A DNA stretch of 43,663 bases. Source: a phage. Under the pieces are notes generated by a model. That model worked only from the letters and a program-made list of their open reading frames with translations. It ran no database searches and was not told the DNA's origin. Positions 160 through 43,552 of this stretch are shown piece by piece (position 1 is the stretch's first letter; each line of letters starts with the position of its first letter). A program made the position numbers and the translations under genes. Location: sequence record PZ445529.1. The stretch is one strand, 5' to 3'.

Positions 160-207
160 GGCAACCAATGCGACCAGCTAAAAACACTCGAAATGGCAAC
201 CAATGCG
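160..207. repeat. two copies of 13-bp motif CGCATTGGTTGCC (reverse orientation) at 160-172 and 195-207; a third forward copy lies at 43540-43552
   Basis: Exact 13-mers read directly; they flank element copy A in inverted orientation, just 3' of the primase/helicase gene. Confidence 0.8.
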
Positions 208-2490: not shown

Positions 2491-2820
2491 TTACTTCGAA
2501 GTTTTGTTATTGCGTACCCAAGAGCGCACGGTGCTTTGGTTAATTCCTGTCAACTCCGCGATCATTGCCCATGACTTCCCCTCATCGCGCAAACGGATAA
2601 CCTGTTTTTTGTATTCTTCCATTTCCTCATTGTGCTTTTGCAGCTTGCTTGCTGCCGTACCGTTGAGTAATTCCAGCTTCGCGCGCAATTCTTTTTCGGT
2701 AAGTCGCAGACGTTCGATCTCAAATAGCACCGCACCCACGGCATCGGTATATGCCCAGGACCGGCTTGTCTCACTGCAAACAGTCTTAGTTAACATTTCG
2801 ATTGCGTCGTCAATATTCAT
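2491..2820 (-). CDS. small helix-turn-helix DNA-binding protein (candidate transcriptional regulator)
   Basis: 109-aa ORF; C-terminal HTH-like segment GKSWAMIAELTGINQSTVRSWV; RBS GGAGA 8 nt upstream of ATG; first gene of the operon with the primase. Confidence 0.65.
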   Translation of the reverse strand: MNIDDAIEMLTKTVCSETSRSWAYTDAVGAVLFEIERLRLTEKELRAKLELLNGTAASKLQKHNEEMEEYKKQVIRLRDEGKSWAMIAELTGINQSTVRSWVRNNKTSK

Positions 2821-2834: not shown

Positions 2835-2849
2835 TTGGTTAATGACCAA
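2835..2849. promoter_or_regulatory. operator-like imperfect palindrome TTGGTtaatgACCAA over the predicted transcription start of the HTH gene
   Basis: Inverted TTGGT/ACCAA half-sites; same half-site as the recurring TTGGTTGCA motif. Confidence 0.4.
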
Positions 2850-2995: not shown

Positions 2996-3025
2996 TTGAC
3001 ACCTATCCTGCAACCAATCTATTAT
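2996..3025 (+). promoter_or_regulatory. main early promoter (-35 TTGACA, 18-bp spacer, -10 TATTAT) with TGCAACCAAT motif in the spacer
   Basis: ttgacacctatcctgcaaccaatctattat; drives the plus-strand early block through a ~195-nt leader. Confidence 0.55.
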
Positions 3026-12722: not shown

Positions 12723-12727
12723 ATTGG

Positions 12728-12756
12728 TTGCATAACCATATTGGTTGCATTATATT
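12728..12756 (+). promoter_or_regulatory. sigma70-like promoter (-35 TTGCAT, 17-bp spacer, -10 TATATT) built on two direct ATTGGTTGCAT copies
   Basis: aaattggttgcataaccatattggttgcattatatt; contains TGGTT-gcat-AACCA inverted repeat. Confidence 0.5.
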
Positions 12757-14187: not shown

Positions 14188-14654
14188 AATTACTGATTTG
14201 CGATTTGGATGGCGTTATTAATGGTTCAAGCGATGCGCGTGCCGACCTGGTGCCGGGGATAAAAACGAAATCAACCTTTTGGGCAAAGTGGCACAAAGCG
14301 CATGTACGCGAAGACCTGAACATGGATATGCTGCCGCTGTTGCGCATGTACAAAGAGCAAGGCTTCGAGATCGCGTATCTGACCAACCGGCAGCTAGAAT
14401 GCTGGGAGACTACCGCCGAGCAACTGGAGGTATTCCCGGCAGGCCGGTTGTTTATGCGCCACATGCTGGACGACACCCCGCCGCCAGAGTTTAAGGCGTG
14501 CGCTGTGTTCAAAATGGTCTGCTATGCAGACGTGTCTGAACTTGTCATCATTGAGGACTGCGAGAAGAACATCGCGGCAATTCGTCGGGCGTGCGGCGAT
14601 TTGGTCCCGAAAATTTACGCAATAAACGTTGCAAAATTCACTTGCAACCAATAG
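14184..14654 (+). CDS. HAD-superfamily hydrolase (nucleotidase/phosphatase-like)
   Basis: 156 aa; motif I LICDLDGVI (DxDG). Confidence 0.55.
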   Translation: MKLLICDLDGVINGSSDARADLVPGIKTKSTFWAKWHKAHVREDLNMDMLPLLRMYKEQGFEIAYLTNRQLECWETTAEQLEVFPAGRLFMRHMLDDTPPPEFKACAVFKMVCYADVSELVIIEDCEKNIAAIRRACGDLVPKIYAINVAKFTCNQ

Positions 14655-14660
14655 GTTGGT
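14632..14660 (+). promoter_or_regulatory. promoter-like element with perfect palindrome TGCAACCAA-tagg-TTGGTTGCA
   Basis: cttgcaaccaataggttggttgcattatag; -35 TTGCAA, 17-bp spacer, -10-like TTATAG. Confidence 0.45.
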
Positions 14661-14717
14661 TGCATTATAGTTAACGCGTCGGGGGGCAATACGGCCTCCC
14701 ATAAAAAGGACCACATA

Positions 14718-15176: not shown

Positions 15177-15184
15177 TTCTAATC

Positions 15185-15200: not shown

Positions 15201-15218
15201 ATCAATGAGGGATTCACA

Positions 15219-15820: not shown

Positions 15821-17389
15821 TTATTTACCTTCCAGCTTTTCCACTTTCCGCAACAGGTGAACGAAGGCGGCACACAGATCCATCAACAGCACGTTACTAT
15901 CTAGTGACAGCACATCGTCCGTATACCCGATTTCCTTTCGGTCGACTACAACTTCGTTGCCTTCCTCGTCCACCCCCTTGATATCCTCATAAATGGCATA
16001 ACCCGGCAGCAAGTGCACATATTCTGGGTCAATCCTTGCCAGATCCTGTGCGATAAGGCCGTATCGCTGTACGTCAGACTCCTTATACTTGAACATTGCC
16101 GGAAGCCATTGACGAACGCGGTTGTAGCTTTCCTCGCCGTCAGTGTATTGGATTTCTTTTTTAAGGTCGCGGTCCGATAGCGCCGCTTTCTGGAACTCGT
16201 TAACCGAAGGGTTGCTGCTGTTACCACTAATCAGCCTGCCGTCCGGTAGGAAGCGGAATAAAGCCTCCGCATAACCATCCTTCCACACGTGGACACGGTA
16301 GTCCGATAAGTGGGCATCGCCGCCCCTGACCAAGCCAGATCGTGTCCAATCCGTGTACCACTTATGCATCGTCTGCCCGACCCAGCTATCCATCCCGAAA
16401 GACGCGTTTGATATAATCAAACCGTTTCTTTCGACATCATTGAAGGTTAGCGATTCGCCTCCGTTCAGACGTAATGTTGCGTGTTTAACGATACTATCAT
16501 CACCAACGCCAAGATTAGCGCGTGCCGCCGATTTATCTGCGACGTCTGCCAGGTTCTGCGACTTCTTCATGAATTGCGTAGGGTCGATCGCGTTTTTGAA
16601 GTCTTCGGCTTCGTCCCGATACCCCTGCGCGGCATCGCGGGCGGCTTGCGCGTCCCTCTTCGCTGTATTGGCCTGATCTCGAATAACGCCGGTGTCAGTC
16701 TTGATCTGGTTCGTCTGCGTCTTGATGGCCTGCGTATCCGTCTTGATCTGGTTCGTCTGCGTCTTGATGGCCTGCGTATCCGTCTTGATCTGGTTCGTCT
16801 GCGTCTTGATGGCCTGCGTATCAGTTTTGATCTGGTTCGTCTGCGTCTTGATGGTATTGGTGGCGTCGCGAATACCCGCCGTCTCGGTCTTGAAGCCTTC
16901 TGCCTCATTGCGAAATCCTTGCGCGGCTGCTTCCGATGCGGCGGCTTGTTGTTGCAGGTCGCGCATTTCCACTGGGTCGATCTGTTTCATCAACTGCGAC
17001 AGATAGCCCCATGACATACCCTGCATGACTTGCCCGTTCGGCAGCGTTACGGTGATTTCTTCAGCGTCGCCGAAGATTGCACGCCAGTTGTTTTCATCGG
17101 CGATCATCAAACGAAATGCTTTCTGTGCCTGGACGGTAACGCCCATCGTAGTCAATGACATGGTGTCACGTTTGATGCCGTCCCAGGCTAGGCCGGTTGC
17201 CGTCGGGCCGTCGAACGGCAGCACCAGCGTAAGCGCCGTGTTACTTTTGATTGATGCGATCGCCACGGTGTAAGGAACTTGCCCTACCACCAGCGTTAAG
17301 AAGTCGCCAGCTTTAAACGCGGTAAACGTTGTGCCGACCCCTACTACCGCCTTGCTATTGTTCGTTACGGATAGCGTACCCGCTGCCAT
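15821..17389 (-). CDS. tail fibre with coiled repeat region and C-terminal intramolecular chaperone (peptidase S74-like) domain
   Basis: C-terminal SDRDLKKEI...YGLIAQDL...LLMDLCAAFVHLLRKVEKLEGK resembles autoproteolytic chaperone domains; start set at ATG 17389 (RBS GAGGA) rather than 17416. Confidence 0.65.
   Translation of the reverse strand: MAAGTLSVTNNSKAVVGVGTTFTAFKAGDFLTLVVGQVPYTVAIASIKSNTALTLVLPFDGPTATGLAWDGIKRDTMSLTTMGVTVQAQKAFRLMIADENNWRAIFGDAEEITVTLPNGQVMQGMSWGYLSQLMKQIDPVEMRDLQQQAAASEAAAQGFRNEAEGFKTETAGIRDATNTIKTQTNQIKTDTQAIKTQTNQIKTDTQAIKTQTNQIKTDTQAIKTQTNQIKTDTGVIRDQANTAKRDAQAARDAAQGYRDEAEDFKNAIDPTQFMKKSQNLADVADKSAARANLGVGDDSIVKHATLRLNGGESLTFNDVERNGLIISNASFGMDSWVGQTMHKWYTDWTRSGLVRGGDAHLSDYRVHVWKDGYAEALFRFLPDGRLISGNSSNPSVNEFQKAALSDRDLKKEIQYTDGEESYNRVRQWLPAMFKYKESDVQRYGLIAQDLARIDPEYVHLLPGYAIYEDIKGVDEEGNEVVVDRKEIGYTDDVLSLDSNVLLMDLCAAFVHLLRKVEKLEGK
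16698..16865. repeat. in-frame 42-bp tandem repeat (about 4 copies, 21-bp sub-period) encoding TDTQAIKTQTNQIK heptad repeats
   Basis: Unit gtcttgatctggttcgtctgcgtcttgatggcctgcgtatcc repeated head-to-tail. Confidence 0.85.
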
Positions 17390-17410
17390 AGCTAAATCCT
17401 CGTAAATTGG

Positions 17411-17439
17411 TTGCAATCCAGGTTGAGCGGTGTAATACT
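17411..17439 (+). promoter_or_regulatory. promoter-like element with ATTGGTTGCAA motif (-35 TTGCAA, -10-like TAATAC) upstream of the lipoprotein gene
   Basis: cgtaaattggttgcaatccaggttgagcggtgtaatact. Confidence 0.4.
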
Positions 17440-17469: not shown

Positions 17470-17688
17470 ATGAAAACTTTAATTATGATTTGTGCGGTTC
17501 TTTTGTCCGGTTGTGCCAACATGCCCGCTAAAGTCTGCGACGCCACATACCAGAATAGCGGCATTGATTATGCGGTCCCTGTGTATGGTGTCGCAGACTT
17601 CTCCGGGCATAAAATGCTAAGGGCGGGTTATCCGTTTAGCTTCCAGTACGTGTCGGTAGACCATTTCAAAAACACCACCTGCGAATAA
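17470..17688 (+). CDS. small lipoprotein (73 aa) encoded antisense inside the tail gene block; candidate receptor-blocking/superinfection-exclusion protein
   Basis: Signal peptide with lipobox MKTLIMICAVLLSGC; RBS GGGGA; own promoter and terminator. Confidence 0.6.
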   Translation: MKTLIMICAVLLSGCANMPAKVCDATYQNSGIDYAVPVYGVADFSGHKMLRAGYPFSFQYVSVDHFKNTTCE

Positions 17689-18721: not shown

Positions 18722-21700
18722 CTACCAGCGACCAGTAAGCTCGCCAATTTGCACGCGTAAAACACCGTTCGCGTCTTTAACGCTGTAGTTGGTGTTGGTC
18801 TGCTTTGTACCACCACCGCTTCCAGTACCCAGGTTGATAAACGTCCCGTCTTTGCCTAAGCGCCATCCGCGCGTGCTGCCGTCGTAGTTATTCGATTGCA
18901 GCGTGTCTGTGATCTGCGCGAAGTTGATGGACGCGTTCTTGATGCGGGCGGTGTCGATGTACACCTGACCACCGTCAACGATAAACGCGGACGAAAGCGA
19001 CCCATTAGACGGGTGCATGATGTAGAACTGGTCCGCCTTGAACGCGATGCGGGATTTAACCGCGCCACCTTCCGCAACAACTGAAAGCTGCATACCGGCA
19101 TCGTAGTAAGTCCCGTTATACGTCACGCCCGCCTTAAGGCTGTATGTGGCGTTGCCACCGGCATGGTTAAACGTGGACGTCATCTTCTGCTCGATAGCGG
19201 CGGACTGCTGACCGAACTGTGCCGCGACCTGGGTCTTGTACTCCGCCAGCGCGCCCGCTACGTCTGCCGTTGCTGTTTGTACCTGCTGGATGGCAGCTTC
19301 CTGTTCCGAAAACTTAGCGGCAACAGTTTGCTGGTACTGGGCGAAGGCTTGCTCGTGCGTGCTTTGCGCTGTCTGCAACGTGTGGATCGCCGCTTCCGCA
19401 TCGTCAAGTCGCGTGCCGATCAACGTTTCCAGTTGAGCTACCGCCTTGTGGGCGTCCGCCGCCACGTTATACGCCACCTTGATTTCCGCATAAATGCCCT
19501 TGTACTCGGCGCGGGCGTTGAACAATTGCTGCGCGTCGGTGAGCATCGCCTCATAAATGCCTTGCGGCATGGTGTCGATCGCTTCCTGGAAGCGTTTACC
19601 ATCTTTGGAAGTCAGGAACTCGTCATCAAGCCCCTTCATATACTCGTCAACATTGTCACTCACCTGCCCTTCAAACGGGGCAGACCAGTCAGACAGGTTG
19701 CCGATTTTATCCGCTACACGGGCGCGCAACTGCTGATAGATGCCGAACTCCAGCGACGTTTGCGCATACTCCGACCCAGGATATGGGACGTTGGTTAAGA
19801 ACTTCCATTCCGTTTCACCGGTCTTGCGCACTTCAAGCTCGGTGTACGAAATATCCGTCGCGGCGTTGTTGTGGTTCCACTTCCACAAAATCTGGTGAAG
19901 GCCGGAAACTGCTGCCGTAATGATAGGCGCGTTAAGACCGCCGAGACGACCTTCGATCGGCGTGATGGCAGACGACACCCACGGTGATGAAATCTCGCCC
20001 ATACCGATCGCGCGAACGCGTGCCTGATAGTTACCGGAAAACACGTTTGGGATATGCGCGCCATTCGATGCCGTGCGGGGAATGTTCACCCAGTCGTTAC
20101 CCCACTGGATTTCCATATTCTGTAAGCTGGTACGTCGCCACTGGATTTCATACACCACGGCATCCTTCACCGGCGGGAATACAATATCCACGTTGGTGAT
20201 TAGCTGGCCTTGCGATGAAATCTGCGACTGGGTGATGGTCACGGACTCCGGCCCCTTCATTACGCCGTCAGGAACTTGCGTAAAGATGCCTGGGTCAAGG
20301 CGAGCGCCATTATCGACGGCATCATATTTGCTATCGTTGTACTCGATCCCGCGCACTGAAAAAGTGCTGGTAGAGTCGTCATATTCCAGGTCGGTAATGC
20401 GGAACTTCTGCAACTGGATATCGTTGCCATCAACGCAAAACGGCTGGTCTGGAATAGGGTCGGCGTCCAGTGCGGTTTTTAGCGTAACCTTGTTGCCGTT
20501 GACGCTGGCGATCTCGCGAGTCTCCACATTACCGCTATCGGTGCGTACAAGGAACTTATCGCCAGGGCGGAACGTGATTTCGCAGTCCGTGTTCAGCACG
20601 GTGCGAGTGCCCGGATCTGACAACAGGCGACCGCCGCGTGTCTCGAAGCCGCCAGAAATGTTTGTATCGGCGATCGCGACTACGCTACCCGGAATAAAGA
20701 AAAGTCCCTCCATGCCAACCTTAAAGCTAACTTGCTGGTCAAGCTGGTTGGAGATTAGCGCCCAGTGCCCACGTCGTTGCGCTTCTGATTCACGCGTACA
20801 TCCGATCGCCGTAATATCCAGACGATTAATCTTATGGCGGCGTACCAGTTCGACACGCTGTCCCGTTGCGATGGCGTCTTCATAGTGGTTCTTCGGGTTG
20901 CCGTATGCTACCGCGAATGTGGAATACCGAGTTTTCTGGCTGCCGGACGCGTAGTCGAATCGGCCATCAATTACCGAGGCGTTGGTGATGGTGTGCGATA
21001 CCGCTGCGACCGGCTGATCGCTTACGATATTCAACATCTGGTTGCCCCACCAGGTCATACCAGCAAAGATAGCGGCTAAATCCTTAAGCACGGTCCAGGC
21101 GTCGGTCTGCGACTGAATGTACATATCATTCTTAAATCGGATTTCCCGCCCGCCGTTGCCATCACTAACCAGCTGATCGCATCGCTGCGCAATCTGGTAG
21201 AGCGCGTACCGGTTCAGCATTTGCGGTTTGATCCGGCGACCTAGGCCGAAGCGTTCAGTAATACAAATATCGTACCAGTGCCACGCAGGATTATCCGTCC
21301 ATGCGCGTTTAAACGTGCCGTCCCAGTCGCCCGAATATGTATGATTAATCGGGTCGTAGTTGTTCGGGACCAGCACTTTGCGGCCTTTGCACTTGATGGA
21401 CACGCGCGGAATGTTCTGGAACGCTTTGGCGTCGAACTCCACGAACAACAGCGCAGTTAGCGGGTATCGCAGGCGGGCGTCGATAATCTCAGTGATGGAT
21501 TGCACCCGGATATCATTAACCACTTTCGCCGATGTGGAGTCTGCCGTTATGCGGTGCACCTCCACTCGCCAGCCAGTATTCACGTTCGGCGGTAATTCGA
21601 TGCGGTGGTCGCGCTCATATAGCGACATTGTTTTACCAACGGCGGCGAATCTGAACTCACGCGGGTCTGCGTTATCCGTATACACAACGATCTTATAGTC

Positions 21701-24912: not shown

Positions 24913-27551
24913 CGTTTGTAAAGTACACCACCCGGTTTCGTCGCTTTCACGATCTCGGCCTTGACCGCCTCGGTGATTTGCTTTCCGAACGCCTGCGCGG
25001 TGCGTGGGTCCGGCCCGCTCACACTGGCATCCGTCTTACCGGTCCCCATGTTCACGTTGGTCGTTACAATCATCCCACCCCCAACACCGGCAGCGGCAAC
25101 GCCCAGCTTACCGTCAGGCCCGCGCTTCAGTGGCATGATGGCCTCGGGTCCGGCCTCACCCATCAATCCAGCGCCTTTAGCGAACGCCTGGACGCCATAA
25201 CTGAAAAAGGTAGGCTGGCTTACCACTTTCCCCGAATAGGCAGCGAGATTGCCTCCTGCGTACGCTCCGCCGTCCGCATTCTTAGTGAGGCCGGAGAAGA
25301 TAGCGCCGAACAATCCGTTTTTGCCGCCGTCGCCACCGAAAGCGCTAACGATGGACTTGAATGCTTGCGATGTAGCCAGCTTGATTAATTCGCTCAGGAT
25401 GGACTTAACCATATCCTTTGCGTTCAGCTTGCCAGTCTCGAAAAACTCGTTCATCGTGTCCTGCATAGCGCCGAACGTGAATTTTGTGAGTGACGTCATC
25501 TGCGTATAGCCGTTACCCATTTCATCCACGCTATCCTTAAGCCCGCGGCTGAATCCATCCCATAGCGAGGCGTTAGCACCGGTCTGTGCTTCCTGCACTT
25601 CGCGCAGTTTAGACACCGCCAGATCAATATCGGTATCGCTAGCGCCCACCCGCTTAAGGCGGTCAATTAGCTGCAATTCTTCGCGCAGGTTAGCCGCTTC
25701 GCGAGTGGAAAGCGCATAGCCCGCCGCGGTGGCTTTTAGCTCGGCGTTCTGGTTCTTGACGAAGGCGTCGATCTGCGCGTGCGCCTTGACCTGCTTCTCT
25801 TTCGCGTCCAGCAATTTGGCTTCTTCGACGATCTGCTCGCGTACTTCCTTCACGCGTCCGAATTCGACCATCTGCTGCTTTTCTGCTGCCGTTAGTGCTC
25901 TTTCTTTGCTTGCTGCGATTAACTGTTCATTATCCGCGATCAGCTTGTTTAGGGCCGCTTGAGCGCGTTGCGTGCGGGTCTGCGTAGACGCGTTGGCTTC
26001 GATCTGCTTGCCGGATTCTCGAAGCTGGGCCAGTTCGCTCCGTGCAACTTCCAGCATTTTCATACCGGCATCCACGCGAACAGCCGCGGCCTTCTTCGGG
26101 GCGGGGTCTTTGTAACGCTCGTTTACCTGCTTCACCGCCTCGGCAAGCTCTTTCTCGTCAATCACGCCGCGCTTATTCAGCAAATTGAGGCGGGCGATCT
26201 CGTCGGCGCGCCTCTTCGCGTTGGTTGCGTACTCCTTCTCAAACGCGGCGCGGTCGCGGGCGGTGCGGTTGGCCTCCTCGTTCGCCTTTGCTGCTTCGTC
26301 CGCGGCGCTGGCGTTGTCCCGCTCCGCACGGTTGCGCAGGGTGAGCGACGCCACTACTTTCTCCTGGGCGACCAGTTCGCTGTAAAGCATGTTAATACGC
26401 GCTTTCTGCGCTTCAGTCATTACCCCACCGGCAGCGTTTACCGCTTTCATCTCGGCATAGTAAGCCGTGGTTAGTCGCTGCAATGACTCACGCGCTTTCA
26501 TCTCGGATTCATTGGAGGACTGCGCGCGGCCCACATCCAGGATGGCGTCCCACATTGATTTGGCTGCCGATGTGACGACGTTCATCGACCGCTCAAGCGT
26601 ACCCATGTTGGACTTGATTTCATTGGTCATGCTGGTGAACGACGCAGCGGCTGTTTTGTTAGCCAACGCAACTGCGTCTGTCTCACGACCCGCATCAACG
26701 AGCGACTGTACCTGCTGGATCTGCGCTTCGTTTACGACGTGATACTTATCCGCCAGCGCACGCAGTCCGCCAACGGGGTCGGTTGACAGCTTCGCCACCG
26801 CCGCGACCACATCCTCGATCGGCTGGCTGGACACCTTCGCGAAGTCATTCACTACCTTCGCCAGTGCGCCGAAGTCACCCCCCGCTTTCACACCCGCCGC
26901 CGCCAGCGCCTGGATTGTGTCACGCGTCTTGCGGAACGACCCGCCCATGCGCTCGGCGTTCTCGGATAGCACCAGGATCTGGTTTGCCGTCAGGCCGGAA
27001 ATGTTACCGGAAAGTGCCAGCGTCTTGTTAAGCGCGGCGACCTGGTTCTCCGCGCGGGACGTAATTGCCACCCCTACGCCTAACGTTGCCGTTAGTGCTG
27101 CAATGCCGATCCCTACCGGACCGAGGAAGCCAGCAACAAAACGCAGCGTGTTACCCAATCCACCGAACGCCCCAGTTAACTGCGGTAACTGCTGAAGCAT
27201 GACGCGGTGCACCGGCATACCCATCTCAAGCGTTACAGCGATATCCTGTAACTGGAATGCGGCGTTACGCGAGGCAAAGCCCAGGTTTTTGGTCGACATG
27301 CCTAACCTGTTGGCAAGTCGCTCCTGTTTCGTCATGCCATCGGCGGCGCGCTGCGATTCAGTCGCCAGCTTCTCCATTCCGCCCGCGGCGTCACTCGTCA
27401 CCTTTTTGGATTTGCCGAGGGTGTCGTTTAATTTCTTAACCTTGTTTTCTGTGTTCTCGGATTTCTGTGCGAAGGAGTCCAGCACAGTATTTGCCGTTCT
27501 GATTTGTGCAACATCAGCCTTCAGCGTGATGCCTGCCGCTTGATCTGCCAT
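24909..27551 (-). CDS. tail tape measure protein
   Basis: 880 aa, Ala/coiled-coil-rich, between chaperone genes and the M/L/K/I/J-like genes. Confidence 0.8.
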   Translation of the reverse strand: MADQAAGITLKADVAQIRTANTVLDSFAQKSENTENKVKKLNDTLGKSKKVTSDAAGGMEKLATESQRAADGMTKQERLANRLGMSTKNLGFASRNAAFQLQDIAVTLEMGMPVHRVMLQQLPQLTGAFGGLGNTLRFVAGFLGPVGIGIAALTATLGVGVAITSRAENQVAALNKTLALSGNISGLTANQILVLSENAERMGGSFRKTRDTIQALAAAGVKAGGDFGALAKVVNDFAKVSSQPIEDVVAAVAKLSTDPVGGLRALADKYHVVNEAQIQQVQSLVDAGRETDAVALANKTAAASFTSMTNEIKSNMGTLERSMNVVTSAAKSMWDAILDVGRAQSSNESEMKARESLQRLTTAYYAEMKAVNAAGGVMTEAQKARINMLYSELVAQEKVVASLTLRNRAERDNASAADEAAKANEEANRTARDRAAFEKEYATNAKRRADEIARLNLLNKRGVIDEKELAEAVKQVNERYKDPAPKKAAAVRVDAGMKMLEVARSELAQLRESGKQIEANASTQTRTQRAQAALNKLIADNEQLIAASKERALTAAEKQQMVEFGRVKEVREQIVEEAKLLDAKEKQVKAHAQIDAFVKNQNAELKATAAGYALSTREAANLREELQLIDRLKRVGASDTDIDLAVSKLREVQEAQTGANASLWDGFSRGLKDSVDEMGNGYTQMTSLTKFTFGAMQDTMNEFFETGKLNAKDMVKSILSELIKLATSQAFKSIVSAFGGDGGKNGLFGAIFSGLTKNADGGAYAGGNLAAYSGKVVSQPTFFSYGVQAFAKGAGLMGEAGPEAIMPLKRGPDGKLGVAAAGVGGGMIVTTNVNMGTGKTDASVSGPDPRTAQAFGKQITEAVKAEIVKATKPGGVLYKR

Positions 27552-27618: not shown

Positions 27619-27787
27619 CAGTCTCAGACGAGGGGGGCCACTGACCCCCGTCTAGTCTGAAAGACTGGGGTGCTGTCCCGCTGTCCCGATCGGCTAAACC
27701 CCGCGGCAGCACTGGTGGGGACGGGGTGCTGTCCCGCTTTGTCCCGCCCCTTGTTTGTCCCGCTTTTTGTCCCGCTTAGTTTATGCA
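27619..27787. repeat. copy B of the 169-bp element (palindrome + GTCCCG iterons), in the gap between the GT chaperone stop and the tape measure start
   Basis: Exact match to 43616-43663 + 1-121; followed at 27826-27857 by extra inverted GGGACA/GTCCCG copies (gggacaaaacgggacgtcccgatctgtcccgc). Confidence 0.9.
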
Positions 27788-27856
27788 ATAAATTCGAATA
27801 GGTATGCACATTTCAGGGGTGGGACAAAACGGGACGTCCCGATCTGTCCCGCTGCA

Positions 27857-28533
27857 TTATGCGGGGTTCTGCTGCGCCATTTCATCAAGCGCGATTCGTT
27901 CCATTAGCTTGATATCTTTAAACGCGCGCTGTTCGTTTTCGATACCGTGCATCTTAAATAGCCACTCCAGCACGCCGTAGTCGATGCCGTATGCGCCACC
28001 AAATCCGGTGCGCCATTGCGTGGAGCAATCTGTGAAGACTGCGACTACCTTCGCGTTGTCGGGCCATAGCGCAACAGGCGGACAAACATCTTCGGGGGCC
28101 GCACCCCATAAACTTGCGGCTAAATCTTCGGAGGGTGGCGGCGGGCCATAAAAGCGTCGCGCCGCCTCAATTAGTTTTTTTCACGCAACCCCATCAGCTC
28201 GAGATAGTACGACGTGTGAAACACACCGAACGCGCGCGGATAGTTGACCACCAGGCGGCGGACGTTCTCCGCGTTAAATTCGTCTGGCAGATTCCAGCCT
28301 TCCGCGACGTGCATGATGGCCTCGACCATAACGTTAAAGCCGTCTGGGTCATTGTCGTCATATTCCGATAGCTTTCGTTCGGTGTCCTGCATGGTTTGCG
28401 AAAATTCGTCGATCGGGCGGTGGCGTACGGTAAACGTCATCTTGCCCGGCTCGTTCTCGCCAGGACGCGGGATCTCAATCGGCAGCTTAAAGGTCGGTTT
28501 AGGGTCAAGTGTGAAGAGTGGTGCTTTAGCCAT
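27857..28533 (-). CDS. tail assembly chaperone GT-like fusion made by programmed -1 frameshift
   Basis: Slippery heptamer A-AAA-AAC at the last sense codons of G; the -1 frame is open for 105 codons to a stop at 27857-27859 with no start codon near its beginning. Confidence 0.6.
28171..28533 (-). CDS. tail assembly chaperone (lambda G-like)
   Basis: 120 aa; ATG 28533 with RBS GGAGA; between major tail protein and tape measure; ends ...R E K N * over a run of seven A. Confidence 0.65.
   Translation of the reverse strand: MAKAPLFTLDPKPTFKLPIEIPRPGENEPGKMTFTVRHRPIDEFSQTMQDTERKLSEYDDNDPDGFNVMVEAIMHVAEGWNLPDEFNAENVRRLVVNYPRAFGVFHTSYYLELMGLREKN
28174..28180 (-). promoter_or_regulatory. slippery heptamer AAAAAAC for the G/GT -1 frameshift
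   Basis: Plus-strand gtttttt; XXXYYYZ pattern in register with the zero frame. Confidence 0.6.
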
Positions 28534-33297: not shown

Positions 33298-33387
33298 GCT
33301 ATCCCCCTGGGATTGTGGCAGAGCAGGCCACCCGCTCGACTTCACGCTTCTAATATTATCAGCGATAAAAATAATCGCAAAATTCGC

Positions 33388-33416
33388 TTGCAATCCTCAT
33401 ATTGGTTGCATATATT
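33388..33416 (+). promoter_or_regulatory. sigma70-like promoter (-35 TTGCAA, 17-bp spacer, -10 TATATT) with two ATTGGTTGCA copies
   Basis: cttgcaatcctcatattggttgcatatattggttgcacaccaaca; the 21-mer tatattggttgcacaccaaca recurs on the minus strand at 43413-43433. Confidence 0.55.
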
Positions 33417-33445
33417 GGTTGCACACCAACAACGAGGACACACTA

Positions 33446-34210
33446 ATGAGACTGACGAAAGACATTAAAAACCAGATTCTGGCTAACATCCTGCGCGACC
33501 ACGAAATCGCAACCGAAGCCAAACAAATCATGATGGACTCTCGCGATCTGGCGTACGCAATCACGCTGGACTGTATGCCGGACGGCATTCGCACATTCGC
33601 AGCGCTCCGCGAGCATATCAAGGAAATCCGCGACGACCAGTCGCAGATGTACGGCGTCAGCGTATACACCAACAAGGCGACGTATAGTTATAACTCCGAC
33701 CGCCCGAAGGGTATCGGCAGCGTCTATAACGCCACCTTTGAAATCAACGCAGGCGGCAATGTTCGCACCTTGTCATTGAGCGGTGACGGTCGCCAATACC
33801 GCGTACATCGCGGATACTGGGAAGAGAAATATATGAATAAGCTTGCGCCTGATCTCGGCGATATCGTTCCGGGGTTCGAGACAGTTATGCTCGCGTCGGT
33901 GTGTGAAGTGGACGAGGACGGGAATGCGCTGCCGATATATCTCCCTCGCGGTCGCGTAGATTACCCGGCAGACCATGACTTCTGTAAACGCTTGGACCGC
34001 AACGACAAGGCCCGTAGCGAGTTGCGCGCGAAGTATGATGCGTTCAAACTAACCGTTACCGGTGTTCTGGACCTGCACAATACTGACAAGAAGCTGATTA
34101 AGGCATGGCCTGAAGTTGAGCAATTCATCCCTTACCCGGACAAGCCGAAGTCCACGGCGGTGGCGCTGGATGTGAAAACTCTCAACGAGATTTGCGGTAT
34201 TCCGCGCTAA
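33446..34210 (+). CDS. hypothetical protein (254 aa) on a moron transcribed antisense to the structural operon
   Basis: ATG 33446 with RBS GAGGA 7 nt upstream; no signal peptide or TM segment seen; own promoter and terminator; no motif I recognise. Confidence 0.65.
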   Translation: MRLTKDIKNQILANILRDHEIATEAKQIMMDSRDLAYAITLDCMPDGIRTFAALREHIKEIRDDQSQMYGVSVYTNKATYSYNSDRPKGIGSVYNATFEINAGGNVRTLSLSGDGRQYRVHRGYWEEKYMNKLAPDLGDIVPGFETVMLASVCEVDEDGNALPIYLPRGRVDYPADHDFCKRLDRNDKARSELRAKYDAFKLTVTGVLDLHNTDKKLIKAWPEVEQFIPYPDKPKSTAVALDVKTLNEICGIPR

Positions 34211-34212: not shown

Positions 34213-34237
34213 AAAAAGGGGCCATTACGGCCCCTTA
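34213..34237. terminator. bidirectional terminator between the moron (+) and the Rz1-like gene (-)
   Basis: aggggcc-attac-ggcccct with A-run upstream and T-rich downstream. Confidence 0.65.
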
Positions 34238-35762: not shown

Positions 35763-37266
35763 TGTCCGCTACCTTGTCCGGGTCTTCTTCGGTGGATTCT
35801 ACCGCATCAGGGGACATTTGAGGCAATGGATTCTGATTTCGCAGTTCGTCTTCCACCTGCTCGACGGTTTGCGAGTCATCAATGACGCCCTGGGCCATCA
35901 TCCACTTGATAAAGTCCGCCAGCCGGACCGTACCGGTCTGCACACCCGCCATCATTGCGGTCATAAGCTGTGCGTCAACCGTGATTTCGGTGTAGAACTT
36001 ATTCAGCGTTACGCGTTGATCTGCGGTGTCGCCCGTGAACAGCTTGACGATTTGCAGCGCACGGTTGAAAGCCTTCTCGACGTTACCGGCAATCAGTGAC
36101 AGGATACTGTTATCAGTCTGCGCATCGTAGGCCGCTTCGGTTGCCGTCTTAGGTGCGGTCCCCTTCTCGACCAGGGCCGCGCCAAGTTTAGCCATTTGCA
36201 GCTCTCGGCGTTCACACAGTGCGACCGATAGGTTTCGTTCTTCGGCCTGAAGCAGTTTGGCGTCCATGTTCTGACCCAGGATAACGCCCTTAGTCGCACC
36301 GAGCGCGATGCCGCCTTTCAGGTTTTTGTCCGCCCATGATTGAGTCAAGCCCGTCGCAACCAGGGTTGGTTGGCCCACTATGTGCGCAATCTCGGCGACG
36401 TCCGCTTCGGCGTTGTAGTGCTTAATGTTGATGGACGCAATATCAGCCAGCGGCGCGGCGTCCGGCGTTGCGTTGTTGTCCACCGCACCACACCAGCAAA
36501 ACGGGAGTTGTGTCAGCGCCTTACCGGCTGCATCCACCAGCGGCACAAGATCGGTACGGGTAAACCCCCGCGGCAAGTCCATTTGCACCTCGGACGTGTC
36601 CGCATTATAAAACCAGCGGCGGGCGTGTGCCGCACCGTTAATCATGCGAAGCTCGGTCCAGATTGTTACTTCGTGGTTTGCGAAGTCGTCCGGGTCTTCG
36701 GTGCTGATTTCGTCCGTTTCCTTCAGAACAATCAGCGTATCGACGCCGTGGGTCTGCCGCCAGTTGATGATCTGTTCTGCCGTATATAGGCGGATAAGCG
36801 GGCGGTGTGACGCCATCTCGGCGGCTGTCTGCGGCACTACGTTACCCAGTTCGTCAAAATGCGCCTGGCGGTCGTAGTCAACCATAAAGCCTGCGCGGCC
36901 AGATTGCAGAACTTCAGACATAGCACCGCGCAGGAGTTGCGGCAGCGGCATTCCGCTGCCGTCTACGTCGTCAATCAGGTCAGCCATCGCCCCGGAAAGG
37001 TCGAGACTTACCGGTTTAGCAAAGGCAACTCCTAACAGCGCGTTAAGTGTGCGGGCGGTGGCGTTCAGGAATACAGCGCGTTGCTTGTACGCCTTATACC
37101 GCGCCCGTGCTTTCGGGTCAGTATTGTCGCCACTGGCGGGATGAGGCAGGTACAAGGGGCCGCACGCCTTCACGGCGCGCTCCCCTGCCACACAATCGCG
37201 GATCATCTTCCACTCGGGCGCGATGCGCGCATAAAGTGGGTGCTGGTTGTCAACGTTAACGGTCAT
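35746..37266 (-). CDS. portal protein
   Basis: 506 aa directly downstream of terminase large subunit. Confidence 0.7.
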   Translation of the reverse strand: MTVNVDNQHPLYARIAPEWKMIRDCVAGERAVKACGPLYLPHPASGDNTDPKARARYKAYKQRAVFLNATARTLNALLGVAFAKPVSLDLSGAMADLIDDVDGSGMPLPQLLRGAMSEVLQSGRAGFMVDYDRQAHFDELGNVVPQTAAEMASHRPLIRLYTAEQIINWRQTHGVDTLIVLKETDEISTEDPDDFANHEVTIWTELRMINGAAHARRWFYNADTSEVQMDLPRGFTRTDLVPLVDAAGKALTQLPFCWCGAVDNNATPDAAPLADIASINIKHYNAEADVAEIAHIVGQPTLVATGLTQSWADKNLKGGIALGATKGVILGQNMDAKLLQAEERNLSVALCERRELQMAKLGAALVEKGTAPKTATEAAYDAQTDNSILSLIAGNVEKAFNRALQIVKLFTGDTADQRVTLNKFYTEITVDAQLMTAMMAGVQTGTVRLADFIKWMMAQGVIDDSQTVEQVEDELRNQNPLPQMSPDAVESTEEDPDKVADNGEDN

Positions 37267-40547: not shown

Positions 40548-40628
40548 TTATAGCAATTCGCAAATAACCATACCGATAAACGCTGCGGCGGACCAGATTG
40601 CCAATACCCAAATATCATTACGTGCCAT
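40548..40628 (-). CDS. small hydrophobic peptide (26 aa) with strong RBS
   Basis: Hand-translated MARNDIWVLAIWSAAAFIGMVICELL; GAGGAG 8 nt upstream. Confidence 0.35.
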   Translation of the reverse strand: MARNDIWVLAIWSAAAFIGMVICELL

Positions 40629-40658
40629 AGTGTAATACTCCTCTTGTTGATTGGTCGC

Positions 40659-40688
40659 AGTATGGCGTCTATGTTGGTTGCAAGTCAA
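40659..40688 (-). promoter_or_regulatory. sigma70-like promoter (-35 TTGACT, 18-bp spacer, -10 CATACT) with TGCAACCAA motif at the -35
   Basis: Reverse complement of 40659-40688; sits just after the terminator that follows the Ig-like gene. Confidence 0.4.
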
Positions 40689-40690
40689 GC

Positions 40691-40718
40691 AATAAAAAGC
40701 CCGGAATTAACCGGGCTT
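40691..40718 (-). terminator. Rho-independent terminator after the Ig-like gene
   Basis: aagcccgg-ttaatt-ccgggctt followed by TTTTTATT on the minus strand. Confidence 0.7.
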
Positions 40719-40724
40719 GTGGTT

Positions 40725-42818: not shown

Positions 42819-43084
42819 TTGCTCAGTCTCCAGTGTTTGCCTACCCGCTCAACGGCGGGCTTCCGGCGTAATGTAATACGGATCCCCATTGGTTGCAAGG
42901 AGGTCCGCACCCTGAAATCGTGTTGTGCTGCGAACTGGTGCAAGTAGCGAGTCTGCGTCAACGGCTTTACGTCGTCGCGATAGCACCAGAATACAGATTC
43001 ACCCTCAACCGCATTCTCAGCCCATATTCGTATGCAATGCAGGGGAATATGCCACGAAAGCTGTTTGGCGCGCCTACGGCTCAT
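42815..43084 (-). CDS. hypothetical basic protein (89 aa)
   Basis: ORF 10 nt after upstream stop. Confidence 0.45.
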   Translation of the reverse strand: MSRRRAKQLSWHIPLHCIRIWAENAVEGESVFWCYRDDVKPLTQTRYLHQFAAQHDFRVRTSLQPMGIRITLRRKPAVERVGKHWRLSK

Positions 43085-43093: not shown

Positions 43094-43399
43094 TTATTTC
43101 GCAAGCTGGGCGAATAGTTCGCGCTGGGCTTTAATCCGGGCGACGTTTGTCACTGCCGTCTCACCGATCCCGAAGCGATACGCCAGGCGCTCACGGGCAA
43201 ATGCCTTGGCATATTCGTGAATTGCCATACGCAACGGCTTCAGGTCATCCAGGCTGGCGTCCATGCGGTAGAGCGCGTCACGAATTGATTGGTGCGCCAG
43301 TACCGCAATCTGCAGCGCCTGGTCTACGTTGCCGTTCAGTGCTTTCGCTTCTTCCAGCTTTGCCACGGCCAGGGTGTAATTCCAGATAATTGCTTTCAT
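43094..43399 (-). CDS. hypothetical protein (101 aa), first gene of the minus-strand operon leading into the lysis cassette
   Basis: ATG with RBS AGGA; promoter immediately upstream. Confidence 0.5.
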   Translation of the reverse strand: MKAIIWNYTLAVAKLEEAKALNGNVDQALQIAVLAHQSIRDALYRMDASLDDLKPLRMAIHEYAKAFARERLAYRFGIGETAVTNVARIKAQRELFAQLAK

Positions 43400-43427
43400 T
43401 GTTCAGTCCTCATGTTGGTGTGCAACC

Positions 43428-43456
43428 AATATAGCAAGGTGCCAGGCCGGATGCAA
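43428..43456 (-). promoter_or_regulatory. sigma70-like promoter (-35 TTGCAT, 17-bp spacer, -10 TATATT) with two ATTGGTTGCA copies
   Basis: Reverse complement gives ttgcat-ccggcctggcaccttgc-tatatt; shares an identical 21-mer with the promoter at 33388-33416. Confidence 0.55.
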
Positions 43457-43539
43457 CCAATATTAATCACGCGCATGAAAAAGTTGATCGCTATCTGCTG
43501 AGACTGCAAACCGCATTTTTCACTCAACATAATACAACC

Positions 43540-43552
43540 CGCATTGGTTGCC
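43540..43552. repeat. forward copy of CGCATTGGTTGCC motif
   Basis: Exact match to the reverse complement of 160-172 and 195-207. Confidence 0.8.

What the first reader, a model, noticed from the sequence alone, without database searches (positions are those of the whole stretch)
33411..33431. Identical 21-nt promoter core shared by the moron promoter and the promoter of the small-gene/lysis operon
tatattggttgcacaccaaca occurs at 33411-33431 (plus strand) and as the reverse complement of 43413-43433. In both cases it covers the -10 hexamer and the start of the leader, and both leaders continue ...GAGGAC...ATG. This exact duplication implies co-regulation of the 254-aa moron protein and the minus-strand operon starting at 43399, or promoter duplication by recombination.
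Basis: seen in the sequence. Interest (0 to 1): 0.5.

Follow-up and report, generated by a model that had tools for sequence, protein, structure and literature searches.

The report
Shared promoter-operator of a coliphage regulon
The repeated 21-mer is real: it is a host-type promoter's -10 box fused to a small palindromic protein-binding site found at only three promoters of this virulent coliphage, one of them driving the phage's only helix-turn-helix gene, so it probably marks a self-regulated early shut-off circuit rather than a chance or recent duplication.

Summary
Observation confirmed. TATATTGGTTGCACACCAACA is exact at 33411-33431(+) and 43413-43433(-), with none in shuffles. Nearly every Dhillonvirus record (HK578-like coliphages) has both copies.

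Interpretation partly right. Both copies hold a sigma70-type -10 (TATATT) and the start of an unstructured leader (GAGGAC...ATG). They are not a recent duplication: the flanks are unrelated and the two sites drift independently.

What makes them identical:
- The -10 overlaps a 15-bp palindrome, TTGGT-N5-ACCAA.
- That palindrome occurs exactly three times in the genome (0.03 expected): the two 21-mers, and just after the -10 of the proximal promoter of the only HTH gene (2491-2820). The same three sites recur in five of six other complete genomes.
- Its left arm, the 9-mer TTGGTTGCA, occurs 12 times (0.29 expected). All copies lie in predicted core promoters. Variant copies flank an iteron cluster that looks like an origin.
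- Box and HTH recognition helix are invariant even in ~70%-identity relatives whose intergenic DNA no longer aligns.

Best reading: a Cro-like, autoregulated repressor circuit that co-regulates the early operon, the Nmad5 moron and its own gene. Binding and timing are inferred, not shown. Modest novelty; directly testable.

The parts
33411..33431 (+). 21-mer, site A: -10 hexamer TATATT (33411-33416), then palindrome TTGGTTGCACACCAA (33415-33429), then CA
   Evidence: invariant in 16 of 17 relatives
33388..33393 (+). -35 hexamer TTGCAA of the moron promoter P_A (17-bp spacer to TATATT)
   Evidence: conserved as TTGCAN, or TTGCGC in one relative (L003), with a variable spacer
33402..33410 (+). 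upstream box TTGGTTGCA abutting the -10 of P_A
   Evidence: conserved with small variants (TTGGTTGCG, TTGGTCGCA)
33446..34210 (+). 254-aa Nmad5-domain gene (cargo of moron slot A); Shine-Dalgarno GAGGAC at 33434-33439
   Evidence: Pfam PF18757 E=2e-61; slot content varies among relatives
34216..34236 (.). bidirectional terminator-like hairpin closing the moron and ending the upstream minus-strand unit
43413..43433 (-). 21-mer, site B: -10 TATATT (43433-43428), then palindrome (43429-43415), then CA
   Evidence: 6 of 14 relatives exact, the rest differ by 1 nt, mostly at -10 positions 3/4
43452..43460 (-). upstream box TTGGTTGCA of P_B; its TTGCA plus T forms the -35 hexamer (43456-43451)
   Evidence: box invariant while the 16-17-nt spacer to the -10 varies freely
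43094..43399 (-). first gene (101 aa, unknown function) of the small-gene/holin/endolysin operon driven by P_B; SD GAGGAC at 43411-43406
2835..2849 (-). third TTGGT-N5-ACCAA palindrome (TTGGTCATTAACCAA on the minus strand), 2 nt after the -10 of the proximal promoter of the HTH gene (TTGACA 2880-2875, 17 bp, TAGTTT 2857-2852)
   Evidence: sequence and conservation; present in 5 of 6 other complete genomes
2491..2820 (-). 109-aa HTH protein (Oekolampad gp50 equivalent): candidate binder of the palindrome and box
   Evidence: Pfam HTH_23 and Sigma70_r4_2; recognition helix invariant in all lineages; AF2 pLDDT 88, a 59-residue helix plus HTH; HTH matches the LuxR/GerE, DeoR, resolvase and sigma-4 types
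3009..3017 (-). box in the divergent control region. It supplies the -35 of a distal minus-strand promoter (TTGCAG-16-TAATTT). As its reverse complement it lies in the spacer of the plus-strand replication-operon promoter TTGACA-18-TATTAT (2996-3025).
12724..12749 (+). two direct boxes (12724, 12741; spacing 17) in promoter TTGCAT-17-TATATT (12728-12756)
14643..14664 (.). inverted box pair TGCAACCAA-tagg-TTGGTTGCA inside promoter TTGCAA-18-TATAGT (14642-14671)
17407..17415 (+). box at the -35 of the promoter (TTGCAA-17-AATACT) of a 72-aa Cor/sie-like lipoprotein gene (17470-17688)
   Evidence: in LM40P1 it is replaced by a two-box promoter
40651..40682 (+). box variant TTGGTCGCA (40651) and box (40674). 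The reverse complement of the 40674 box lies in the spacer of the minus-strand promoter TTGACT-18-CATACT (40688-40659), upstream of the phosphoesterase/terminase genes.
42889..42897 (+). box inside a small gene, antisense to it; its TTGCAA gives a conserved sense-strand internal promoter TTGCAA-17-TACATT (42898-42870)
160..203 (-). two direct box variants CGCATTGGTTGCC (160-168, 195-203) just after the helicase-primase stop
43544..43552 (+). inverted box variant (GGCAACCAATGCG on the minus strand) on the other side of the iteron/palindrome region

Best explanation
The window is a complete, circularly permuted Dhillonvirus genome. Each 21-mer is the -10 hexamer of a sigma70-type promoter (TATATT) overlapping a 15-bp palindromic operator, TTGGT-TGCAC-ACCAA. 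That operator spans roughly -8 to +7 and is followed by an unstructured, CA-rich leader.

The palindrome type TTGGT-N5-ACCAA has half-sites one helical turn apart. It exists at only three places in the genome: the promoter of the Nmad5 moron, the promoter of the small-gene/lysis operon, and the proximal promoter of the phage's only recognisable helix-turn-helix gene (2491-2820).

Proposed mechanism (inferred). The 109-aa HTH protein dimerises through its long helix and binds these operators. As it accumulates, it blocks open-complex formation or promoter escape. It thereby limits its own synthesis and turns down the early operon and the moron together. This is a Cro-like early shut-off in a virulent phage.

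The operator's left arm, the 9-bp box TTGGTTGCA, is also scattered through the core regions of at least eight promoters (at the -35, in the spacer, or abutting the -10), and variant copies lie next to the iteron cluster beside the helicase-primase gene. The same protein may therefore tune most non-structural transcription.

Shown: the sequences, their counts, their positions relative to the hexamers, and their conservation. Inferred: transcription start sites, protein binding, the identity of the binder, and the direction of regulation.
For: 1. Promoter assignment. The consensus scan gives TTGCAA-17-TATATT at A and TTGCAT-17-TATATT at B. In 14-17 relatives the hexamers are fixed and the spacers drift. 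Site B varies at -10 positions 3/4, keeping A2 and T6.

2. Palindrome. TTGGT-N5-ACCAA occurs 3 times against 0.03 expected, with none at N2-4 or N6-7. The same three promoter positions are occupied in Oekolampad, SO-1, LM40P1, Zar3M and rolling. In relatives of ~70% identity, TGGT-CTGCA-ACCA sits just after the -10 of the HTH gene's promoter.

3. Box. There are 12 exact copies against 0.29 expected, 10 of them in the 7% of the genome that is noncoding (P=1.6e-10). It is the top 10-mer and 12-mer of the genome. It occurs in both orientations and at several registers inside promoters. That behaviour fits a protein site better than an RNA-polymerase element.

4. Persistence. In contigs L264 and L265 the intergenic DNA no longer aligns, yet two direct boxes lie in the early-operon core promoter and 3-4 copies lie at the helicase-primase stop.

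5. Candidate binder. It is the only Pfam HTH found among about 36 proteins scanned. Its recognition helix SWAMIAE.TGIN.STVRSWVRN is invariant in that subfamily and nearly so in CHD5UKE2, even where the N-terminal domain has been swapped. The AF2 model (pLDDT 88) shows a 59-residue helix plus an HTH. The HTH superposes on LuxR/GerE, DeoR and sigma-4 HTHs at 0.4-1.5 A. In syntenic Guernseyvirinae a Cro-like HTH occupies the same position.

6. Iterons versus boxes. In L264 the iterons change (TGTGCCAA) and the helicase-primase C-terminal tail diverges most, while box and HTH stay constant.

7. Not a generic host-factor site. Bas72, a syntenic phage of the same host, has no box.
Against: There are no binding, start-site or expression data for any Dhillonvirus in the searchable literature.

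Box and HTH are both invariant. Their association is therefore co-conservation, not true co-variation.

Serratia phage Tsm2 has no homologue of the HTH protein. Yet it carries six exact boxes, four of them as GCAACCAA clustered in the 3' end of its helicase-primase gene.

CHD5UKE2 lacks the palindrome at its own HTH-gene promoter.

Most boxes lack a second half-site, so how they would be bound is unclear.

The central 5 nt differ between the HTH-gene operator (CATTA) and A/B (TGCAC).

An unrelated T4-like phage, RB43, has one promoter with TATATTGGTTGTACACCAAT in the same layout. This could point to a host factor or to an RNA-polymerase-level role.

The -10 of the HTH-gene proximal promoter (TAGTTT) is weak.
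Confidence: 0.55

Rival explanations
1. Same operator and box, but a different binder. One candidate is the C-terminal tail of the helicase-primase or another phage protein, acting like an initiator that also represses promoters (as DnaA does). Another is a host regulator of the GntR/FadR type. Such regulators recognise TTGGT...ACCAA-like palindromes (PdhR, ExuR/UxuR; recalled from memory, with different spacings).
For: Box variants flank the iteron cluster right after the helicase-primase gene. Tsm2 lacks the HTH protein but has a GCAACCAA cluster in its helicase-primase 3' end. VSiP has a one-base variant, ATGTTGGCTG, at the same place. RB43 has ATTGGT-N5-ACCAAT over a -10.
Against: Bas72 and VSiP infect enterobacteria with the same gene layout but have no exact box. 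The helicase-primase tail varies, and does so in step with the iterons, while the box does not vary. No DNA-binding fold could be shown for that tail: the single-sequence AF2 model has pLDDT 39.7. The N5 spacing matches no E. coli regulator I can name. Paired boxes were not seen at enterobacterial chromosomal loci among the rows listed by a truncated scan.
Confidence: 0.2
2. No dedicated regulator is involved. The shared sequence is simply an optimised expression platform read by host RNA polymerase and ribosomes: a -35 TTGCA, a -10 TATATT, a GG discriminator and an unstructured CA-rich leader. It is conserved because it gives strong early expression.
For: Boxes at the -35 position sit a fixed 17-18 bp from the -10. 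The leaders are unstructured, at -1.6 to -2.2 kcal/mol. RB43 has a similar promoter and leader.
Against: This does not explain boxes in reverse orientation, boxes in spacers, or boxes abutting the -10. It does not explain boxes at the helicase-primase stop. It does not explain why exactly three promoters carry the full palindrome, one of them the HTH gene's own. In L264 and L265 the position of the second box relative to the -10 shifts while the box itself is kept.
Confidence: 0.15
3. The conserved promoter segment acts mainly as a recombination linker, like the PeSL cassettes of RB49/phi1. It would provide homology for swapping accessory genes in and out of the two slots.
For: Cargo differs immediately after ...CACCAACA at site A: 109-, 140-, 53-, 38+105- and 172-aa genes lie before or after Nmad5, and SO-1 has the 172-aa gene alone. 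The first gene after site B differs in Oekolampad and SO-1. In PeSLs, crossovers were mapped between the -10 and the ATG (PMC2839356).
Against: No gene is shared between slot A and slot B in 17 genomes. The two 21-mers lack an adjoining stem-loop. 21 nt is short for homologous exchange. The third palindrome drives a core, non-variable gene. This rival is not exclusive of the operator model.
Confidence: 0.08
4. A recent duplication or gene conversion copied one promoter onto the other, so the identity carries no functional meaning.
For: The 21/21 identity in this genome.
Against: The flanks are unrelated. Both sites are present throughout the genus and drift independently. Site A is invariant even where neighbouring bases vary.
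Confidence: 0.02

Closest known systems
Lambda Cro and its operators (early turn-down of PL/PR by a small HTH dimer encoded first in the operon that carries the replication genes)
   Same: A small HTH protein is encoded at a divergent control region, just upstream of the replication genes. Palindromic operators have half-sites one helical turn apart and overlap the -10/+1 of several early promoters, including the regulator's own. Negative feedback and early shut-off are expected. In syntenic Guernseyvirinae a Cro/C1-type HTH sits at the same position.
   Different: There is no sequence or family relationship: the protein is HTH_23/sigma-4/LuxR-like with a 59-residue helix, not the Cro fold. 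The phage is virulent, and none of the annotated relatives list a CI or an integrase. Besides three full operators there are at least 12 dispersed half-operator boxes, plus copies next to putative origin iterons. Binding has not been shown.
Stoperators of cluster A mycobacteriophages (dispersed asymmetric repressor sites; recalled from memory)
   Same: Many copies of a short asymmetric site are spread through the genome, mostly co-oriented with transcription (9 of 12), probably bound by one phage protein.
   Different: Here every copy lies inside a predicted core promoter rather than within transcription units. The site is 9-12 bp. There is no immunity repressor and no lysogeny.
PeSL promoter-early stem-loop cassettes of RB49/phi1-type phages (PMC2839356)
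   Same: A conserved sigma70 early promoter and leader precede variable accessory ORFs. A PeSL-like promoter in RB43 even shares TATATTGGTTGTACACCAAT...GAGGAC.
   Different: There is no stem-loop at the two 21-mers, only two or three copies, and no evidence of exchange between copies. The Dhillonvirus element carries a specific palindrome that is also found at a regulator gene.
DnaA boxes, and plasmid Rep initiators that autoregulate through iteron-like operators (recalled from memory)
   Same: A 9-bp asymmetric box is found both beside an iteron/palindrome region next to the replication genes and inside promoters.
   Different: The origin function of the region is not shown. The box differs from the local iterons. 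The binder is unknown.
T4 MotA-box middle promoters (recalled from memory)
   Same: A phage-specific box replaces a good -35 at a fixed distance from the -10 in four promoters.
   Different: Other copies lie in spacers, at the -10/+1, or reversed. No MotA or AsiA domain was detected in the proteins scanned.

Membership tests
sigma70-type bacterial promoter | -35-like and -10-like hexamers separated by 16-18 bp, with A2 and T6 in the -10 | tested here: met
   A: TTGCAA-17-TATATT. B: TTGCAT-17-TATATT.
sigma70-type bacterial promoter | hexamers conserved while the spacer drifts in related genomes | tested here: met
   Site B's -10 variants (TAGATT, TATTTT) keep A2 and T6.
sigma70-type bacterial promoter | transcription starts about 7 nt downstream of the -10 | not testable with these tools
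   No 5'-end or RNA-seq data for the genus were found.
moron (independent promoter-gene-terminator unit inserted in a phage operon) | own promoter, own terminator, placed between genes of a conserved late operon | tested here: met
   Promoter; bidirectional hairpin at 34216-34236; location between the spanin and scaffold genes on the opposite strand.
moron (independent promoter-gene-terminator unit inserted in a phage operon) | presence or content varies between otherwise collinear relatives | tested here: met
   Slot content varies in 17 genomes.
autoregulated repressor-operator circuit (Cro-like in function) | palindromic operator with half-sites about one helical turn apart, overlapping core promoter elements | tested here: met
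   TTGGT-N5-ACCAA at -8..+7 (A, B) and about -4..+11 (HTH-gene promoter); 3 copies against 0.03 expected.
autoregulated repressor-operator circuit (Cro-like in function) | an operator at the regulator's own promoter | tested here: met
   2835-2849; conserved in 5 of 6 other complete genomes and as TGGT-N5-ACCA in L264 and L265; absent in CHD5UKE2.
autoregulated repressor-operator circuit (Cro-like in function) | the regulator is a small dimeric sequence-specific DNA-binding protein | tested here: inconclusive
   The HTH is clear. The dimer is only suggested by a 59-residue helix.
autoregulated repressor-operator circuit (Cro-like in function) | the protein binds the operator and represses | not testable with these tools
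   Needs EMSA or footprinting, reporters and phage mutants.
Cro/CI (HTH_3 / Cro fold) protein family | sequence or fold homology to Cro/CI-type HTH proteins | tested here: not met
   Only a marginal, below-cutoff HTH_3 hit (E=0.009). No similarity to the Cro-like proteins of Tsm2 or VSiP. Best matches are sigma-4, LuxR/GerE, DeoR and resolvase HTHs.
PeSL cassettes | composite of an early promoter plus an adjacent stem-loop terminator | tested here: not met
   No convincing stem-loop adjoins either 21-mer. Other box promoters (12724, 40674) do adjoin hairpins.
PeSL cassettes | recombination between copies shuffles the flanked ORFs | tested here: not met
   No cargo is shared between slots A and B in 17 genomes. 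Minicircles cannot be tested here.
T4 MotA-type middle promoters | box at one fixed position replacing the -35, plus MotA/AsiA-like factors | tested here: not met
   The box occupies at least four registers and both orientations. No MotA or AsiA domains were found.
stoperator-type dispersed repressor sites | many asymmetric sites, one orientation relative to transcription, bound by an immunity repressor of a temperate phage | tested here: not met
   9 of 12 are co-oriented and all lie in core promoters. No repressor/integrase module is annotated in relatives.

The most novel reading that the evidence does not exclude
One small phage protein (a sigma-4/LuxR-like HTH on a long coiled-coil helix) reads about 20 copies of a 9-bp box. 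Full palindromes sit at three promoters, half-sites lie in most other non-structural promoters, and a cluster flanks the origin-like iterons. A virulent siphovirus would then couple replication-module expression, early shut-off, moron expression and possibly origin activity through a single DnaA-box-like regulon. The related box clusters in Tsm2 would mean the system predates the split between Dhillonvirus and Guernseyvirinae.
Probability: 0.2. Interest if true: 0.65.

Novelty: new member of a known kind. Interest (0 to 1): 0.45.

Why it matters
Dhillonviruses (SECphi18, BASEL Bas14-18, HK578, SO-1) are standard test phages in anti-phage defence research. I found nothing on their promoters or gene-expression timing in the literature I could search. 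This analysis supplies:
- a concrete promoter map;
- a three-member operator regulon;
- a named candidate regulator;
- an explanation of why an accessory slot and the early operon share a promoter core.

The accessory slot is one where cargo genes are swapped between relatives. The model predicts when such genes are expressed. It also gives an engineering handle: a portable, probably self-limiting early promoter. It can be tested with a gel shift and a time-course RNA-seq. It is an instance of a familiar regulatory logic rather than a new principle.

Tried and rejected
1. Literature. Searches for the motif, for Dhillonvirus/HK578 promoters and for transcriptomes found nothing relevant.

2. Two-box patterns in viral contigs and bacterial genomes. 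They are uninformative about a host regulon.

3. Known RNA families and tRNAs: none in the window.

4. RNA-structure role for the shared leader: rejected. The leaders fold at only -1.6 to -2.2 kcal/mol, and the TTGGT/ACCAA hairpin is weak and largely upstream of the predicted start.

5. Recent duplication or gene conversion: rejected.

6. Exchange of cargo between the two 21-mer slots: none found in 17 genomes.

7. Transfer of a promoter-plus-gene cassette between RB43 and Dhillonvirus: the ORF next to the RB43 element has no Dhillonvirus homologue.

8. Sigma54, DnaA, IHF, FNR/CRP, marbox and PdhR consensus sequences, compared by eye from memory: none fits.

9. Co-variation test using homologues of the HTH protein. 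The family is confined to Dhillonvirus-like phages and its recognition helix never varies. Only co-conservation could be shown.

10. Single-sequence AF2 model of the helicase-primase C-terminal tail: pLDDT 39.7, unusable.

11. Max-order Markov expectations for the k-mers: uninformative for a repeated word. Simple composition and shuffle controls were used instead.
Full report
OBSERVATION

The 21-mer TATATTGGTTGCACACCAACA is exact at 33411-33431 (+) and 43413-43433 (-). No further match appears with up to three mismatches, and 0 of 100 shuffles give two copies. Both copies are followed by GAGGAC and an ATG. The 254-aa gene starts at 33446, not 33447. Upstream of the 21-mer the two regions share nothing except a shorter word (below).

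CONTEXT

The window is a Dhillonvirus (HK578-like virulent coliphage), about 95% identical to SECphi18 in the region compared. Its two ends are contiguous in relatives, so it is a complete, circularly permuted genome.

Transferring annotation from Oekolampad, SO-1 and others gives this layout:
- Minus strand, 43399 down to 34225: small genes, holins, endolysin, a terminator, then phosphoesterase, terminase, portal and spanins.
- Plus strand, 33446-34210: an Nmad5-domain protein (Pfam E=2e-61).
- Minus strand, 33297 down to 17709: scaffold, capsid and tail genes.
- Plus strand, 3042-15794: replication genes.
- Minus strand, 2820 down to 216: a 109-aa HTH protein, then a 754-aa helicase-primase.

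PROMOTER ASSIGNMENT

Site A scores as TTGCAA-17-TATATT and site B as TTGCAT-17-TATATT. In alignments of 14-17 relatives the hexamers are fixed while the spacers drift.
- At B, the 16-17 nt between the upstream box and the -10 are almost free to vary.
- At B, five of the eight variant relatives differ at -10 position 3 (TAGATT) and one at position 4 (TATTTT), which are the least constrained positions of a -10; two others carry a substitution further downstream.
- Site A is exact in 16 of 17 sequences. Site B is exact in 6 of 14 and one base off in the other 8.

The two copies therefore evolve independently under selection. They are not a recent duplication. Across the phage collection the element is found at 335 places in 175 records, i.e. 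twice per Dhillonvirus genome.

The Nmad5 gene has moron anatomy. It has its own promoter and lies on the opposite strand. A bidirectional hairpin at 34216-34236 follows it. The slot content varies: Nmad5 alone, or with 109-, 140-, 53-, 38+105- or 172-aa genes before or after it, and SO-1 carries the 172-aa gene alone.

THE 21-MER IS PART OF A LARGER FAMILY

Its core, TTGGTTGCA, occurs 12 times exactly against 0.29 expected. Ten copies lie in the 7% of the genome that is noncoding (binomial P=1.6e-10). ATTGGTTGCA and ATATTGGTTGCA are the most frequent 10-mer and 12-mer in the genome.

Every copy lies in a predicted core promoter:
- At the -35, with the box's TTGCA serving as the hexamer at a fixed 17-18 bp from the -10: 3009-, 12724+, 17407+, 43452-.
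- Reversed at the -35: 14643 and 42889. The latter gives a conserved internal promoter TTGCAA-17-TACATT on the sense strand.
- Abutting the -10: 12741, 14656, 33402.
- Overlapping the -10 and +1: 33415, 43421.
- Reversed, in the 18-bp spacer of an opposing promoter: TTGACA-18-TATTAT for the replication operon at 2996-3025, and TTGACT-18-CATACT at 40688-40659.

In LM40P1 the 17407 promoter has been replaced by a two-box promoter with the same architecture as the one at 12724. Both orientations and several registers argue for a protein-binding site rather than an RNA-polymerase recognition element.

Variant boxes, CGCATTGGTTGCC, sit right after the helicase-primase stop as two or three direct copies. 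One inverted copy lies on the far side of an iteron cluster (AGCGGGACA, six copies) and long palindromes.

THE KEY RESULT

The right half of the 21-mer (CACCAA) completes a palindrome, TTGGT-N5-ACCAA. This palindrome occurs exactly three times in the genome (0.03 expected) and never with 2-4, 6 or 7 central bases. Two copies are the 21-mers. The third (2835-2849) lies 2 nt downstream of the -10 of the proximal promoter of the HTH gene: TTGACA-17-TAGTTT-cg-TTGGTCATTAACCAA, followed by SD and ATG at 2820.

The same three positions, and only those, carry the palindrome in Oekolampad, SO-1, LM40P1, Zar3M and rolling. CHD5UKE2 keeps only A and B; its HTH protein has a swapped N-terminal domain and a different upstream region.

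DIVERGENT RELATIVES

A deep search with the HTH protein found only 25 clusters, all Dhillonvirus-like. Two contigs encode versions about 60% identical in protein sequence (L264, L265). These phages are about 70% identical in the helicase gene, and their intergenic DNA does not align. They still have:
- TGGT-CTGCA-ACCA (the 21-mer operator, reversed) just after the -10 of the HTH gene's promoter;
- two direct boxes inside the core promoter of the early operon, spaced 17 and 13 bp, with no 21-mer;
- three or four ATTGGTTGCC copies at the helicase-primase stop.

L264 has different iterons (TGTGCCAA), and its helicase-primase C-terminal tail is the most diverged (53% identity, against 63% in L265, which keeps the iterons). 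The recognition helix of the HTH protein (SWAMIAE.TGIN.STVRSWVRN) is invariant throughout. This suggests that the box and palindrome go with the HTH protein, and the iterons with the helicase-primase tail. Because box and helix never vary, this is co-conservation, not co-variation.

THE CANDIDATE REGULATOR

It is the only protein with a recognisable DNA-binding domain among about 36 scanned. Matches are HTH_23 and Sigma70_r4_2, with sub-threshold ECF sigma region 4.

An alignment-based AF2 model is confident (pLDDT 88). It shows a continuous 59-residue helix followed by a helix-turn-helix. The HTH superposes at 0.4-1.5 A on DeoR, LuxR/GerE/NarL, resolvase and sigma-4 HTHs, but there is no whole-protein match.

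A long helix plus an HTH, and half-sites 10 bp apart, fit a dimer. In syntenic Guernseyvirinae (Tsm2, VSiP) a Cro/C1-type HTH sits at the same position; Bas72 has a small 'transcriptional regulator' beside its helicase-primase gene.

MECHANISM PROPOSED

The protein binds the three full operators across the transcription start. It thereby limits its own synthesis and turns down the early small-gene/lysis operon and the Nmad5 moron together. This is a Cro-like early shut-off in a virulent phage. The dispersed boxes may give weaker or cooperative control of other promoters, and the same protein may also act near the origin-like region.

Established here: the sequences, counts, positions and conservation. 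Inferred: start sites, binding, the identity of the binder, and the sign of regulation.

EVIDENCE THAT DOES NOT FIT NEATLY

- Tsm2 has no homologue of the HTH protein but carries six exact boxes. Four are GCAACCAA copies clustered in two reading frames in the 3' end of its helicase-primase gene, next to different iterons, TTCCGCACA. Some of the other Tsm2 copies are coding coincidences (Leu-Val-Ala in a spanin).
- VSiP has ATGTTGGCTG at the homologous place and the same TGAATAGTTATGCA element as the window.
- Bas72 has nothing comparable.
- RB43, a T4-like phage, has a single PeSL-like promoter (stem-loop with TTGCAT, 17 bp, TATATTGGTTGTACACCAATTATGAGGAC...ATG) between regA and an ORF upstream of gene 43. 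The BLAST E-value is only 0.2, and the neighbouring ORF has no Dhillonvirus relative.

These observations keep alive a different binder (helicase-primase or a host factor) and an RNA-polymerase-level role.

RIVALS

- A pure 'optimised expression platform' does not explain reversed boxes, boxes in spacers, boxes at the origin-like region, or the restriction of the palindrome to three promoters.
- A PeSL-like recombination-linker role (PMC2839356) fits the variable cargo after the 21-mer. But no gene is shared between the two slots in 17 genomes. It may coexist with the operator role.
- RNA structure is excluded.
- Recent duplication is excluded.

NOVELTY AND VERDICT

No paper in the searchable library mentions the motif or any Dhillonvirus promoter or transcriptome. 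The logic is familiar: an autoregulated small repressor with operators over early promoters. The protein family, the operator and the dispersed boxes are undescribed. I rate it a new member of a known kind. Interest is moderate (0.45), mainly because it turns the expression programme of a widely used phage genus into a directly testable model.

Noticed in passing
window 1-115 and 27667-27860: The two loci share the same repeat units on the same strand (GGGGTGCTGTCCCGCT, TGTCCCGCTTTGTCCCGCCCCTTGTT), which read as AGCGGGACA iterons on the other strand. One locus lies beside the helicase-primase gene, the other upstream of the tape-measure gene. The SO-1 record annotates the equivalents as repeat 'region A' and 'region B'. 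The arrangement is reminiscent of P4 ori/crr (recalled from memory).
   Followed up: partly
L264:2700-2960 versus window 1-215: In a relative of ~70% identity the iterons are different (TGTGCCAA instead of AGCGGGACA), and the helicase-primase C-terminal tail is the most diverged segment. The ATTGGTTGCC boxes are unchanged. This suggests that the helicase-primase tail reads the iterons.
   Followed up: partly
L258 (Serratia phage Tsm2) 9372-9494: Four GCAACCAA copies in two reading frames lie inside the 3' end of the helicase-primase gene. TTCCGCACA iterons follow just after the stop. Tsm2 has no homologue of the Dhillonvirus HTH protein. This is unexplained by the favoured model.
   Followed up: partly
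L262:270-340 (RB43 25897-25967, between regA and the ORF upstream of gene 43): A PeSL-like promoter closely resembles the 21-mer: a stem-loop containing TTGCAT, then 17 bp, then TATATTGGTTGTACACCAATTATGAGGAC...ATG, with a perfect ATTGGT-N5-ACCAAT palindrome. It is a one-off in the first 50 kb of RB43, and the adjacent ORF is unrelated to any Dhillonvirus gene.
   Followed up: partly
window 12751-12783: The promoter TTGCAT-17-TATATT is followed at once by a terminator-like hairpin, GGGTGTCC-ggtt-GGACGCCC plus T5. The predicted start falls inside the 5' arm. Read-through from upstream would therefore terminate, while transcripts from this promoter would not.
   Followed up: no
window 40548-40720: A minus-strand terminator (40690-40720) is followed by the promoter TTGACT-18-CATACT and a 26-codon ORF with a strong SD (ATG at 40628). 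On the plus strand, TTGATT-17-TATGTT points straight into the same hairpin and could give a ~45-nt RNA; that promoter is not conserved in LM40P1.
   Followed up: partly
window 33356-33368: An invariant perfect palindrome, TTATCAGCGATAA, overlaps the -10 region of a predicted minus-strand promoter for the scaffold/capsid genes (TTGCGA-16-TAATAT, 33380-33353). It may be a site for a different (late?) regulator.
   Followed up: no
window 2952-2985: A strong plus-strand intrinsic terminator (GCGCCG...CGGCGC plus T9) lies immediately upstream of the replication-operon promoter. On the minus strand the same hairpin would be at the 5' end of the distal HTH-gene transcript.
   Followed up: no
window 14666-14717: A GC-rich hairpin at the start of the transcript from the 14656 promoter is conserved, with apparently compensatory changes among relatives (GGGGGGC/GGCCTCCC, GGGAGGCC/GGCCTCCC, GGGGC/GCCCC).
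   Followed up: no
window 17470-17688: A 72-aa gene, annotated in relatives as a lipoprotein or superinfection-exclusion protein, is a second opposite-strand moron with a box-bearing promoter. LM40P1 carries a different, two-box promoter here.
   Followed up: partly
L135 (CHD5UKE2) 20200-20649 and upstream: The HTH protein has a completely different, longer N-terminal domain (33% overall identity) but a nearly identical recognition helix. Its promoter lacks the palindrome. This is a natural domain swap that could be exploited experimentally.
   Followed up: partly
window 13963-14187: This 74-aa ORF between the Dam methyltransferase and the phosphatase is, by position and length, the equivalent of Ksap1. 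Ksap1 is the SECphi18 protein reported to trigger the KpAvs2 defence (PMC11564622).
   Followed up: no
window 16701-16870: 42-bp tandem repeats (at least four copies) lie inside the lateral tail-fibre gene.
   Followed up: no
window 115-145; L259 (VSiP) 37160-37195: The element TGAATAGTTATGCA, next to the iterons, is shared between Dhillonvirus and the Salmonella Cornellvirus VSiP even though their iterons differ.
   Followed up: no
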